From a virus (taxonomy: Duplodnaviria; Heunggongvirae; Uroviricota; Caudoviricetes): 64,000 nt of DNA. Shown here one piece after another: positions 31,001-34,000 of this stretch. The stretch's first letter is position 1; each line of letters starts with the position of its first letter. The position numbers were made by a program. The DNA is taken from IMG/VR virus record IMGVR_UViG_2721755728_000011, one strand, 5' to 3'.

Positions 31001-34000
31001 CAGTGATTAACACTGATGCTATAGCAATTGCTCCGCCACCAATAGCAGCAGCAACTGCTTTTCGTAATGATGGAGGCATTATTCACCTCTCGCAGCCTTG
31101 CGCTTATCTTCTTTAATCTTGAAATAAAGGTTTGTCAGGTACGTCAGCAGGCCAAATACCAGGCTACCCAGCACACCTATTGCTGCCCACTGTGAGGGCG
31201 TGACTTTATCGAGCAGCTGTAAAAACCAGTAACCGGCACTACCTGCTGAGGTGCCATAGGCGACACCCGTTGTTAACTTATCCATGGATTTCATAACCCC
31301 ACCTCGCAGATGCGGGTGCTGTGTAATGGAAATAAAAAGGCCACCTGACGTGGCCACCAAATTATTTCCCCACCAGCTCGTTTATCTCTTTCACTGTCTG
31401 GTTAAACCGCTCTGACTCAAGCTCAACACCTAAGGCCCGACGCCCCAGCGCCATTGCTGCTTTTATTGTGGAACCGGATCCCATAAAAAAATCAGCAACC
31501 AGATCACCAGGTCGACTACTGGCATTGATTATTTGCCTGAGCATATCCGCCGGTTTCTCACACGGATGTTTACCCGGGTAGAACTGAACGGGTTTATGCA
31601 TCCAGACATCGGTATAAGGCACGGAGACTGATACGGAGAAATAGCGCCGGAGAGATTTAAACTCATCCAGCAATTCAGAATATTTGCGATTCAGTGAATC
31701 ATAAGATGCCACCAGCTGGTGGTGTGGTTGTTCCAGTTGTTGTTCCTGAAACTTCTCTGCCGCTATACGGGAAAACAGTGCCTGTAACTTCCGATAGTCA
31801 GCCTCATTCGGCAACTGCCACTGACTGGCACCAAACCAGTGGGAAACCATATTTTTCTTACCTGTGGCTTCGGCAATTTGTTTTGCCGTTATACCCAGTT
31901 CGGCACGAGCATCCCTGAAATACGAAATCAGCGGTGCCATTATGTGCTGTTTGAGTTCCCTTTCTTTTGCCGCATAGCCGTCACTTTTGCCGCGATATGG
32001 CCCCTGGTAATGTTCAGCAAACAGAACGCGCTCTGTGGCTGGAAAATATGCACGCAGACTTTCTTTATTACACCCATTCCAACGTCCGGACGGCTTCGCC
32101 CAGATGATATGGTTAAGCACGTTGAAACGTTCACGCATCATGATCTCAATATCAGATGCCAGGCGATGCCCACAGAACAGGTAAAGGCTTCCGGCAGGTT
32201 TTAACACCCGCCAGAACTGGGCCAGACAGTGGTCCAGCCACTTAAGGTAATCTTCGTCCCCTTTCCACTGATTGTCCCAGCCGTTGGGTTTCACCTTGAA
32301 GTACGGCGGATCGGTAACAATCAGGTCAATGGAATCATCAGGCAGGGACTGAATAAAATGCAGGCAATCAGCGTTGATTAAATCAACACTGTTTATTTTT
32401 ACAGTATTTTTCATGGATCAGTAAGCGTAACTCTGGTAGGCTCACTCTGCTTTTGCGCTAAAGCAGTGGGCCGTGGTTCGCTTGTGACCAGTAAGCATGA
32501 GCGAATGGCTGGCAGGTGCTACCAACACCCACCAGCCGCCCATTTTCACAGCAGGAAACCGCCATTACTGGCAGCGTCTGAATTTATTCCCGTACCCGCC
32601 GTTATCCTTCGCCAGACCCGCCAGAACTAACTGAGTCAGTATTAACTGGCACCGGGCTTCGCTTACTCCGGTAGTTCTCGTCATCATGCGTGGCGTTACC
32701 CACTTGTCAGCAGGTAAGAAATGAAGGACTGCGGCGGCGGTTTCTGTCATATCTTGCTGTTTTAGCATGTCTTTTTCCCTTCTGGTTAACATGACATACC
32801 AATAACTCTTGTCTAAAAAGCCAGCAAGATAAAAAGTCAGTATTCACGACCACCAGCGTGTTTACTGTACTGCACCAAGTTTACGGGTACAAAAAACCCG
32901 CTCAGTGGCGGGTTGCTATCACAGCTATATATTTACTTATTATGCCGTTACTAACATTTATCTTCGACATATAATCGAAAACAAGGTTTGCTTAAAACTC
33001 TGCTTTCATTTTATCCGGGAATTTTTTATTTGCAGCATAATAACTACCAAGTACATAAGCGTTCATTTGCTGCTCTACATCAACCCGACATGCCGCACTA
33101 GAACAAGCTCCACTGATAAGCCCAAAAGAACTCCCTTTAGCAGAGAGATCAGCTTTGATTTCCTCTACAGTGTTTTTCCCCATAGCAACTACACACCCTG
33201 TCACAATATATCTAGCTTTCACATCATCCATGCTAAGGATAGTAGTTTTCGCAATTTTGCTGTATCCATCATTTTTATAAACATCCATGGCAAACGCACG
33301 GCAATCTGTATAATACGGACTTGCTTTAACTTGCGAATACTCAGGTAATTTCATACCTGCACAACCAACTAAACAAAAACCTATCGCTGCTATTAATACC
33401 TTTTTCATTACAGTCATAACCTAGAAGCATCATTGAAACTAATTTATTAAATAACCATCGAGTTTCTGGAATACAGACGTTAACCATCTCTCCAAAATCT
33501 AAAAGATAATAAGAAAAAATGTTTAACGCACCAATCCATTTCATAGTTTCATGAGACATCAGGCACAAAAAAACCCGCTCAGCGGCGGGTTTTTGACATT
33601 TACCAACGGTAGACATACAAGGCCCATCGTTGAGAAAATCTTATCCATATTTTTTGAAAAATGCAAGTATCACGTCGACATCTTCGGCGAAAATTATCTA
33701 TCTTGTCACTTTTCTCAATTGCGATTCAGCATACGCTTCTTCCTGCCAGCACTTTGTAACCAGTTTATTAATAACGTCTGCATATCCTTTGTACCACTGA
33801 TAATCCGTCAGGTCCGGTACCAGTTTCTGGACATGATGCCGCGCCAGTGTGGTTGGTAAACGGCTAAACCGGTTGCCATTGCAACGCCCACAAATCTTAT
33901 AAACAGGCACACCATGAAGCCGGGTTCTTTTTTCATCCAGGACAATACCTTTACCCTTACACCCTCTGCACGCTGTGCTGACTTCTCCCTTACCATGGCA

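What the first reader, a model, noticed from the sequence alone, without database searches (positions are those of the whole stretch)
31362..32414. Orphan beta-class DNA methyltransferase between lysis genes and the Q-proximal cargo
DPPY (motif IV) precedes FxGSGST (motif I), the beta-class order, and no restriction partner is nearby. A late-expressed methyltransferase could protect progeny DNA from host restriction or affect host gene expression in the lysogen.
Basis: partly seen in the sequence, partly recalled or inferred. Interest (0 to 1): 0.35.

Follow-up and report, generated by a model that had tools for sequence, protein, structure and literature searches.

The report
Known phage non-specific adenine methyltransferase gene
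The gene is an intact prophage copy of the already characterised M.EcoGII family of methyltransferases, which methylate adenine in any sequence and are switched on only during phage growth, so it is ordinary; it is, however, preceded by a conserved folded RNA leader that I could not find described anywhere I could search.

Summary
Window 31362-32414 (- strand) is an intact 350-aa beta-class amino-methyltransferase: DPPY comes before FMGSGST, Pfam PF01555 scores E 2e-42, and no restriction enzyme lies nearby.

It is not an unknown enzyme. It is about 81% identical over its full length to M.EcoGII, the characterised non-specific adenine methyltransferase of E. coli prophages, and 89% identical to a reconstructed ancestor that was made and assayed as an active DNA and RNA methyltransferase. 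The gene occurs in about 23% of complete E. coli genomes and in phages mEp460, cdtI and SfV.

It sits downstream of Q and two intrinsic terminators and just before the holin. This fits a gene that is silent in the lysogen and read only by Q-antiterminated late transcription. The expected result is motif-less m6A on progeny DNA, giving broad anti-restriction.

New here: the 135 nt before the start codon form a five-helix element with strong covariation. It lies upstream of this gene family across Enterobacterales, N15 and a Vibrio phage, and Rfam 15 has no match for it.

Caveat: the prophage is cut off at an odd palindromic junction at 34862/34865.

The parts
31362..32414 (-). Methyltransferase CDS, 350 aa, M.EcoGII family. 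DPPY codons are 32312-32301 and FMGSGST codons are 31487-31467.
32415..32550 (-). Conserved structured 5' leader that ends at the start codon. P1 is 32542-32538 paired with 32471-32467. The P2 hairpin is 32537-32507, and its 5' arm contains a Chi octamer. P3 is 32505-32477, P4 is 32466-32447 and P5 is 32443-32423.
   Evidence: Alignments A4, A6 and A7 and covariance model R1. No Rfam match. The sequence pattern is tied to the MTase gene in 117 of 119 testable viral contig hits.
32565..32792 (-). Small ORF of 75 aa (67 aa from the annotated ATG at 32768), phrog_331, function unknown. It lies a fixed 150 nt upstream of the MTase in E. coli-type phages.
32895..32914 (-). Second copy of the intrinsic terminator hairpin (AACCCGCCACTGAGCGGGTT followed by a T run). 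It marks the left edge of the module shared by all related loci, whichever type of Q they carry.
32992..33417 (-). 141-aa lipoprotein-like 'moron' (extra cargo gene) with low G+C of 0.33-0.39, inserted between the two terminator copies. It is not part of the MTase unit.
33563..33594 (-). First intrinsic terminator after Q, the tR'-like hairpin AAAAACCCGCCGCUGAGCGGGUUUUU.
33638..33666 (-). Promoter-like TTGCAT-17 nt-TAAGAT just after the Q stop codon, a candidate pR'. It matches only 7 of 12 consensus positions, so this is inference.
   Evidence: Read from the sequence. The scan did not call it.
33698..34450 (-). Late antiterminator Q (PF03589, E 7e-54).
31330..31355 (-). Terminator-like hairpin GGCCAC-GUCAG-GUGGCC followed by UUUUUAUUU, between the MTase stop codon and the holin start codon.
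   Evidence: A terminator is annotated at the same place in N15 and in phage Ayreon.
31079..31294 (-). Holin (P21 S type), the first lysis gene downstream.
34464..34862 (-). 3' fragment of the DUF968 gene. The prophage breaks off here at a palindromic junction.

Best explanation
The ORF is an intact member of the M.EcoGII/M.EcoGI family. These are prophage-borne beta-class N6-adenine methyltransferases that modify adenine regardless of the surrounding sequence. The gene is a resident late gene of lambdoid phages, placed after Q, its promoter and terminators, and immediately before the holin. In a lysogen, transcription stops at the terminators, so this cell-damaging enzyme is not made. After induction, Q-modified RNA polymerase reads through and the enzyme is made together with the lysis and virion proteins. 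It then partly methylates adenines throughout the replicating phage DNA before packaging. As a result the progeny are less sensitive to the many Type I, II and III restriction systems that are blocked by m6A. A conserved folded leader of about 135 nt directly upstream of the start codon probably sets how much enzyme is translated, or when. Shown here: the family assignment, intact motifs, gene order, terminator hairpins, and the conservation and covariation of the leader. Taken from papers: the non-specific activity, silence in lysogens and toxicity of close homologues. Inferred: non-specific activity of this particular allele, Q dependence, the anti-restriction benefit, and the leader's regulatory role.
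For: Family assignment. PF01555 matches with E 2e-42. The protein is 281/349 identical to the published M.EcoGII sequence with only two 1-residue gaps, 89% identical to the reconstructed ancestor Anc291 and 71% to SUPREM. [quoted passage not shown]

Published properties of the family. M.EcoGII methylates up to 99% of dA in any context. It is not expressed in its lysogen, and clones that express it constitutively grow slowly and are unstable. Five of six reconstructed ancestors were expressed and purified and were assayed on DNA and RNA; broad, largely context-independent methylation was shown by direct RNA sequencing for two of them, Anc291 and SUPREM. The closest site-specific relative cited, M.PflMI, is only 27% identical to M.EcoGII. 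Homologues were silent in EC958 by RT-PCR and gave no motif in 95JB1.

Context. The gene order Q, terminator, (cargo gene), terminator, small ORF, leader, MTase, hairpin, holin was read. The same placement is seen in eight other assemblies carrying either of two Q types. It is also seen in an Stx2a phage where the MTase precedes the tRNAs and stx2AB, in N15 with its annotated promoter and terminators, and in Serratia and Vibrio phages. G+C content equals that of the phage backbone. No restriction partner is present.

Leader. Covariation supports the fold: 26 of 34 pairs carry double changes against 8-14 in slid controls, and 85% of cells are paired against 26-50%. The covariance model gives one hit per locus, always on the sense strand and abutting the MTase start codon.
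Against: No biochemical data exist for this allele. It differs from M.EcoGII at about 19% of residues, including 18 of the 78 target-recognition-domain residues. My AlphaFold model was of low confidence (mean pLDDT 66.7), so the fold of that domain was not confirmed here. The M.EcoGII sequence I compared with was machine-read from a PDF and has at least two apparent reading errors. I found no paper in the held library that measures m6A in virion DNA of a phage carrying this gene. Heavily M.EcoGII-methylated plasmid transforms E. coli 10^4-10^5-fold less well, so heavy methylation is costly and the benefit must come from partial methylation. The pR' assignment rests on a weak consensus match. 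In this window the prophage has lost everything upstream of the DUF968 fragment. If that junction is real, Q and the MTase may never be expressed here.
Confidence: 0.75

Rival explanations
1. It is a site-specific orphan methyltransferase that is active in the lysogen. It would write a strain-specific motif and act as an epigenetic regulator of host genes.
For: Orphan MTases such as Dam and CcrM do act this way, and RefSeq labels some copies 'site-specific DNA-methyltransferase'. The target-recognition domain is predicted to be a helix-turn-helix bundle, like those of sequence readers. It differs from the M.EcoGII domain at 23% of positions.
Against: The protein is about 81% identical to an enzyme shown to have no sequence specificity. 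It lies inside a clade bracketed by non-specific extant enzymes and by reconstructed ancestors two of which kept broad RNA methylation, while the nearest site-specific enzyme cited is about 27% identical to M.EcoGII. Homologues gave no motif and no transcript in three lysogens. Two terminators separate the gene from the promoter region.
Confidence: 0.05
2. In this particular genome the gene is an unexpressed passenger. The prophage is a remnant, or the sequence is a mis-join, with no early region to supply Q. The intact reading frame then reflects only recent decay or recombination. This reading does not exclude the family assignment.
For: Homology with other E. coli prophages stops at 34863, inside the DUF968 gene. 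There the sequence turns into the reverse complement of another DUF968 allele at a CCCGGG palindrome, with 395-nt arms that are 95% complementary and 2 nt apart. None of 5,426 complete E. coli genomes has this junction. A second mirror-like junction lies in two tape-measure genes near 52636.
Against: The ORF, its leader and its terminators are 99.9-100% identical to copies in intact prophages and in isolated phages. The junction may be an assembly artefact, in which case the real prophage could be complete. Q from another resident prophage of the same type could act in trans.
Confidence: 0.3
3. The enzyme's main job is not protection from restriction. It might methylate RNA or single-stranded DNA, or regulate the phage's own cycle (timing of late genes, packaging, or shut-down of the host).
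For: M.EcoGII methylates ssDNA almost as well as duplex DNA and also methylates RNA. Heavily methylated DNA establishes poorly in new cells.
Against: RNA activity of the natural enzyme is about 100-fold lower than its DNA activity (Table S3 of the SUPREM paper). The gene has been lost or cut down to a 34-aa remnant in many viable Stx2a phages such as 933W and Sakai. It is therefore dispensable for the lytic cycle, as an accessory anti-restriction gene would be.
Confidence: 0.1

Closest known systems
M.EcoGII and M.EcoGI of E. coli O104:H4 C227-11 (Murray et al. 2018, PMC5778455)
   Same: Both are beta-class enzymes of the same length (349 vs 350 aa). They are about 81% identical end to end with no indels in the target-recognition domain or linkers. 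Both are prophage-borne orphans. A 93%-identical relative of M.EcoGII occupies the same slot after Q.
   Different: About 66 substitutions separate them, 18 of these in the target-recognition domain. This allele has not been assayed. It is closer to the reconstructed ancestor Anc291 (89%) than to M.EcoGII itself.
N15 gp52 and the MTases of Serratia phage OS31 and Vibrio phage MAR (a VHML ORF17 relative)
   Same: They belong to the same protein family at 48-65% identity. They have the same position just before the holin or lysis genes, and the same structured leader upstream.
   Different: The hosts and phage types differ: a linear plasmid prophage and a myovirus. These loci lack the 75-aa ORF.
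M.PflMI (CCANNNNNTGG), the nearest site-specific relative named in the SUPREM study
   Same: It has the same overall predicted fold, including a helical target-recognition domain.
   Different: It is only about 27% identical to M.EcoGII and lacks the charged inter-domain linker. The window protein keeps that linker.
Phage Mu Mom
   Same: It works in a comparable way: a late, toxic DNA-modifying enzyme with broad specificity that is silent in the lysogen and protects progeny DNA from many restriction systems. From my own knowledge, mom translation is also gated by an mRNA stem-loop at the start site, which is opened by the Com protein.
   Different: The chemistry (acetamido-adenine) and the protein family are unrelated. 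No Com-like activator has been identified here.
Solved beta-class MTases: 8urk/9c3u, M.RsrI, M.MboIIA, CcrM
   Same: They share the catalytic Rossmann core, with DPPY and FxGxG in the same order.
   Different: All are site-specific, and they show no sequence similarity across the central 120-280 region of the window protein.

Membership tests
Beta-class N6/N4 amino-methyltransferases (Pfam PF01555) | Catalytic motif IV (D/S)PP(Y/F) lies N-terminal to the SAM-binding motif I FxGxG | tested here: met
   DPPY is at residues 35-38 and FMGSG at residues 310-314.
Beta-class N6/N4 amino-methyltransferases (Pfam PF01555) | Profile score above the curated threshold | tested here: met
   145.9 bits against a cut-off of 26.7, E 2.2e-42.
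M.EcoGII-type non-specific adenine MTases | Full-length close homology to M.EcoGII/M.EcoGI | tested here: met
   281/349 identical, 90% positives, two 1-residue gaps. The comparison used a machine-read copy of the published sequence.
M.EcoGII-type non-specific adenine MTases | Central helical target-recognition domain with a helix-turn-helix, joined to the core by long charged linkers that the site-specific M.PflMI lacks | tested here: inconclusive
   At the sequence level the region is collinear, 70-77% identical and charged to a similar degree. My AlphaFold model shows helices at 146-173, 177-184, 190-194, 204-223 and 231-255, but its mean pLDDT is only 66.7.
M.EcoGII-type non-specific adenine MTases | Methylates adenine in any sequence context, and also ssDNA and RNA | not testable with these tools
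   This needs expression followed by LC-MS or SMRT sequencing. It is inferred from phylogenetic bracketing.
M.EcoGII-type non-specific adenine MTases | Prophage-encoded, silent in the lysogen, harmful when expressed constitutively | tested here: inconclusive
   The prophage late-operon position behind two terminators is shown. Silence and toxicity are known only for homologues.
Type II restriction-modification system | A cognate restriction endonuclease gene lies adjacent to the methyltransferase | tested here: not met
   The neighbours are the holin, lysozyme, Rz, DUF1441, a 75-aa ORF, a lipoprotein, Q and DUF968. None gives a PADLOC hit.
Dam-type GATC orphan MTases of phages (Pfam PF02086 / PF05869) | Membership of the alpha/D12 or phage Dam profile families | tested here: not met
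   Only PF01555 is hit. A separate PF05869 Dam gene sits in the early region of related prophages.
Any Rfam 15 RNA family (tested for the leader) | Covariance-model match | tested here: not met
   No match at E <= 1 over the leader in the window or in six diverse loci. ARAGORN found no tRNA.

The most novel reading that the evidence does not exclude
The 135-nt five-helix leader (window 32415-32550, - strand) would be an undescribed class of cis-acting structured RNA dedicated to M.EcoGII-family methyltransferase genes. It might act as a translational gate, an autoregulatory binding site for the RNA-binding MTase itself, or a sensor of a small molecule such as SAM or SAH. Its role would be to set the dose and timing of a non-specific enzyme that damages the cell. 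Such a mechanism would help explain how phages can carry this gene safely, and would matter to anyone expressing M.EcoGII as a tool.
Probability: 0.35. Interest if true: 0.55.

Novelty: already known. Interest (0 to 1): 0.3.

Why it matters
The gene itself adds nothing new. It is one more copy of a widespread, characterised and commercially used enzyme family.

The assignment does change how the gene should be tested. One should look for motif-less m6A after induction or cloning, not for a motif in the lysogen.

Two points have some value beyond that. First, the exact operon wiring gives a concrete explanation for the silence reported in lysogens: Q, two terminators, leader, MTase, another hairpin, holin. 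Second, the covarying leader RNA appears to be undescribed. It offers a testable handle on how a sequence-blind and cell-damaging methyltransferase is dosed during phage development.

Tried and rejected
1. Exact M.EcoGII sequence. It was not among the top 120 cluster representatives and no phage record exceeded 93.7% identity to it. I therefore used the machine-read sequence from the SUPREM supplement. The 42-sequence alignment suggests two reading errors in it: H103 should be I, and there is an extra R at 324.

2. AlphaFold2 with 42 close homologues gave a mean pLDDT of only 66.7, so I ran no fold search.

3. The 75-aa ORF as an obligatory partner or controller of the MTase: rejected. It is fixed 150 nt upstream in E. 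coli-type loci and has two allelic forms, but it is absent from N15, Serratia and Vibrio loci. It has no Pfam, NCBIfam, PADLOC or PDB match.

4. The leader as a tRNA or a known RNA family: rejected.

5. The leader as a small upstream ORF: rejected. I checked this by eye on the sequences printed. The ATG in GCTCATG opens an 18-codon frame in the window, but it is lost in Providencia-type sequences and stops after 4 codons in N15.

6. The leader as a DNA palindrome or an antisense RNA: unlikely, because many pairs are G-U, including the commonest pair of P5.

7. Pairing between the P3 loop (G[G/A]UCA) and the UGAUC just before the AUG is possible in nearly all sequences. Both sides are almost invariant, so it is untested by covariation.

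8. Predicted occlusion of the start region. The mean unpaired probability is 0.41 with the native leader and 0.45 with shuffled leaders, too small a difference to count.

9. A viral-contig scan with alignment A5 returned only near-identical loci. Diversity came from the genome scan instead.

10. One pattern hit, L239, is a chance match inside a terminase-like (large) ORF of an unrelated phage.

11. Literature searches for virion methylation by this family and for the leader's conserved strings found nothing relevant.
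Full report
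**1. Observation**

The window holds one long ORF at exactly the stated coordinates: 31362-32414 on the - strand, 350 aa. I read both motifs directly from the sequence. GAT CCG CCG TAC (DPPY) is at 32312-32301. TTT ATG GGA TCC GGT TCC ACA (FMGSGST) is at 31487-31467. The catalytic motif therefore precedes the SAM-binding motif, which is the beta-class order.

The profile matches are far beyond chance:
- Pfam PF01555: E 2.2e-42, 145.9 bits against a cut-off of 26.7.
- phrog_67: E 1.6e-102.
- A PADLOC Type II MTase model: E 3e-152.

Solved beta-class enzymes (8urk/9c3u, M.RsrI, M.MboIIA, CcrM) align to the N- and C-terminal halves only. Residues about 120-280 have no solved relative by sequence.

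The neighbours are a P21-type holin, a lysozyme, Rz, a DUF1441 protein, a 75-aa ORF, a 141-aa lipoprotein-like ORF, antiterminator Q and a DUF968 fragment. None resembles a restriction enzyme or any defence protein.

**2. What it is**

The DNA is 99-100% identical to genes in hundreds of complete E. coli genomes. It matches 1,264 of 5,426 genomes, with up to 8 copies in one genome. It is 97-99% identical to genes of phages mEp460, Ayreon, cdtI and SfV. The exact protein is indexed in more than 22,000 blocks of the public assembly collection.

The published M.EcoGII sequence (SUPREM supplement, machine-read from a PDF) aligns end to end with 281/349 identities and two single-residue gaps. By region, identity is:
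- 89% in the N-terminal catalytic part,
- 70-72% in the two charged linkers,
- 76% in the C-terminal part.

There are no indels in the central region. The window protein is even closer to the reconstructed ancestor Anc291 (89%) and is 71% identical to SUPREM/Anc284.

According to the papers, M.EcoGII and M.EcoGI methylate adenine in any context, in dsDNA, ssDNA and RNA. Five of six reconstructed ancestors were expressed and purified and were assayed on DNA and RNA. Broad, largely context-independent methylation was shown by direct RNA sequencing for two of them, Anc291 and SUPREM. The nearest site-specific enzyme, M.PflMI, is only about 27% identical to M.EcoGII and lacks the charged linker.

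The window protein lies well inside the bracket of tested non-specific enzymes, so I assign it to this family. Its non-specific activity is an inference, not a measurement. My own AlphaFold model shows a helical central domain, but its confidence is too low (mean pLDDT 66.7) to count as a test.

**3. Context and likely mechanism**

On the - strand the order is as follows:
- DUF968 fragment, 34464-34862.
- Q, 33698-34450.
- A promoter-like TTGCAT-17 nt-TAAGAT, 33666-33638. It matches only 7 of 12 consensus positions, so it is my reading, not a call by the scan.
- A strong terminator hairpin, 33594-33563.
- A low-GC lipoprotein cargo gene ('moron'), 32992-33417.
- A second copy of the same terminator, 32914-32895.
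- The 75-aa ORF.
- A 150-nt spacer.
- The MTase.
- A terminator-like hairpin, 31355-31330.
- The holin.

In eight other assemblies that carry the identical protein, the block from the terminator to the holin is constant. The Q gene, in contrast, is of either of two unrelated types, and the cargo between Q and the terminator varies or is absent. Homology to the window always resumes exactly at 32914.

Other phages show the same arrangement. In an Stx2a phage a 93%-identical relative of M.EcoGII sits in the same slot, followed by the tRNAs and stx2AB. N15 has an annotated promoter, terminator, MTase, terminator and holin. Serratia and Vibrio phages place the homologue just before their lysis genes.

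The gene is thus a resident first gene of the late operon. It is insulated by terminators that only Q-modified polymerase should pass. This explains what the literature reports without giving a mechanism: no methylation or transcript in lysogens of C227-11, EC958 and 95JB1, and harm to the cell from constitutive expression.

The proposed role, broad protection of progeny DNA from restriction, is the published view. It has not been shown directly in any paper I could find. There is also a tension. Plasmid DNA carrying 80% m6A transforms 10^4-10^5-fold less well, so only partial methylation can be useful. Many Stx2a phages, including 933W and Sakai, keep only a 34-aa C-terminal remnant of the gene. 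It is therefore an accessory gene.

**4. The leader**

The 150-nt spacer is more conserved than the coding sequence. It can be aligned with Serratia OS31, N15 and Vibrio MAR, whose MTases are only 48-65% identical, and the stems differ in sequence while keeping their pairing.

From 80 loci in different bacterial species I took 39 non-redundant leaders and proposed five helices:
- P1, TGGGC paired with GCCCA, closing a junction.
- P2, a 12-bp hairpin.
- P3.
- P4.
- P5, GAGC paired with GCUU, ending 8 nt before the AUG.

On the plain MAFFT alignment, 82% of cells pair, against 28-53% when partners are slid by 1-3 columns. Eighteen pairs show double changes, against 7-12 in the slid controls, and 0 of 500 shuffles reach the observed values.

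A covariance model built from this alignment was run over the window plus 84 loci, 360 kb in total. It found 63 strong hits (E 1e-12 to 4e-37), one per locus, always on the sense strand and ending at the MTase start. The 64-kb window has a single hit, at 32408-32550. Photorhabdus loci score weakly and Xenorhabdus loci do not score.

On the model-guided alignment, 26 of 34 pairs show double changes against 8-14 in the slid controls, and 85% of cells pair. This alignment leans towards the structure by construction. Frequent G-U pairs point to an RNA of the sense strand.

A sequence pattern taken from three conserved blocks was searched in viral contigs without reference to the protein. It gave 121 matches. 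Of these, 117 have the MTase starting about 21 nt downstream, 2 have too little downstream DNA to test, 1 (L232) has only 349 nt downstream and no detectable MTase, and 1 (L239) is a chance match inside an unrelated gene.

Rfam 15 has no match at E <= 1 in the window or in six diverse loci, and ARAGORN finds no tRNA. Text searches found no description of the element.

Its function is unknown. My best guess is control of MTase translation or of mRNA fate. Supporting hints are weak. E. coli-type sequences have no Shine-Dalgarno sequence. The P3 loop could pair with the UGAUC before the AUG, but this pairing is invariant and so untested. The predicted start region is only slightly less accessible with the native leader than with shuffled leaders.

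**5. A caveat about this copy**

Similarity to other E. coli prophages ends at 34863, inside the DUF968 gene. At a CCCGGG palindrome the sequence switches to the reverse complement of a different DUF968 allele. The two arms are 395 nt long, 95% complementary and 2 nt apart. The sequence then continues into a second prophage late region in the opposite direction. No complete E. coli genome has this junction.

A second mirror-like meeting of two tape-measure genes lies near 52636. Homologous recombination between prophages would give collinear hybrids, not head-to-head halves. A mis-join in assembly or an unusual fold-back rearrangement is therefore likely. If the junction is real, this prophage has no early region and the MTase may never be expressed here.

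**6. Verdict**

The finding is real and correctly described as an orphan beta-class methyltransferase in the late region. It is an already known kind of enzyme and a very common gene. The ideas of a target motif and of a lysogen-level epigenetic role do not, and the proposed refutation test would mislead. Interest in the gene itself is low. The structured leader is the one item worth a follow-up.

Noticed in passing
window 32415-32550 (- strand); also L011 2370-2507, L012 2374-2511, L013 2315-2475 and about 60 other loci: A conserved five-helix structured leader lies directly upstream of the MTase start codon. It shows strong covariation, is specific to M.EcoGII-family genes, and has no Rfam 15 match.
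   Followed up: yes
window 34468-34862 / 34865-35259: Two different DUF968 3' halves meet in a near-perfect head-to-head palindrome (395-nt arms, 95% complementary, 2-nt centre). The switch occurs at a CCCGGG site and is absent from 5,426 complete E. coli genomes. It is either an assembly mis-join or a fold-back rearrangement, and it cuts the MTase prophage off from its early region.
   Followed up: partly
window about 51250-54040, centre near 52636: A second mirror-like junction: two tape-measure gene 5' halves (PF06791) converge from opposite strands. The nested inverted arms are 81-89% complementary. The window therefore seems to join three partial lambdoid late regions in alternating orientation.
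   Followed up: partly
window 28658, 31370, 31709, 32529 and 32850 (all - strand): Five Chi octamers (GCTGGTGG) lie in the sense orientation of the late genes, within about 4 kb of the expected right genome end. The window has 9 in all against 2.9 expected. Two lie inside the MTase gene and one forms the 5' arm of leader helix P2. This fits the published 'Chi-rich right end' class of lambdoid phages (PMC12315714).
   Followed up: partly
window 32895-33594 (- strand): The 141-aa lipoprotein-like ORF (phrog_4748, G+C 0.33-0.39) is inserted between two copies of the same terminator hairpin. Related prophages lacking the ORF have a single copy. This looks like a cargo-gene ('moron') insertion that duplicated tR'.
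   Followed up: partly
window 32565-32792 (- strand): A small ORF of unknown function (phrog_331) sits a fixed 150 nt upstream of the MTase in E. coli-type phages. Two allelic forms share their N- and C-terminal parts but differ in the middle (56% identity overall). It may be the 'conserved hypothetical phage ORF' next to the anti-sRNA genes described by Tree et al. 2014.
   Followed up: partly
phage records H89-H115 (e.g. NC_019442 23941-24039, AP000422 21007-21105): Many Stx2a phages, including the EDL933 Stx2 prophage (933W) and VT2-Sakai, retain only the last 34 codons of this MTase. Other Stx2a and Stx2c phages keep the whole gene, which in Stx2_14040 lies upstream of the tRNAs and stx2.
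   Followed up: no
window 33563-33666 (- strand): A promoter-like element followed within about 50-70 nt by a strong terminator just after Q would yield a short constitutive transcript. It would be comparable in position to lambda 6S RNA or to StxS of Stx phages.
   Followed up: no
window 35266-38710 (+ strand): The second prophage fragment carries a different Q (PF06530), an oppositely oriented porin gene (35854-36951, PF00267) in its Q-to-lysis cargo slot, and then a lysozyme and Rz. It has no MTase and no leader.
   Followed up: no
window 573-4019: Beyond the tail-fibre genes lie a Bro-N protein, an HTH plus M78-peptidase (ImmA/IrrE-like) gene pair, and a GIY-YIG domain protein. These are possible accessory or defence cargo at the prophage end.
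   Followed up: no
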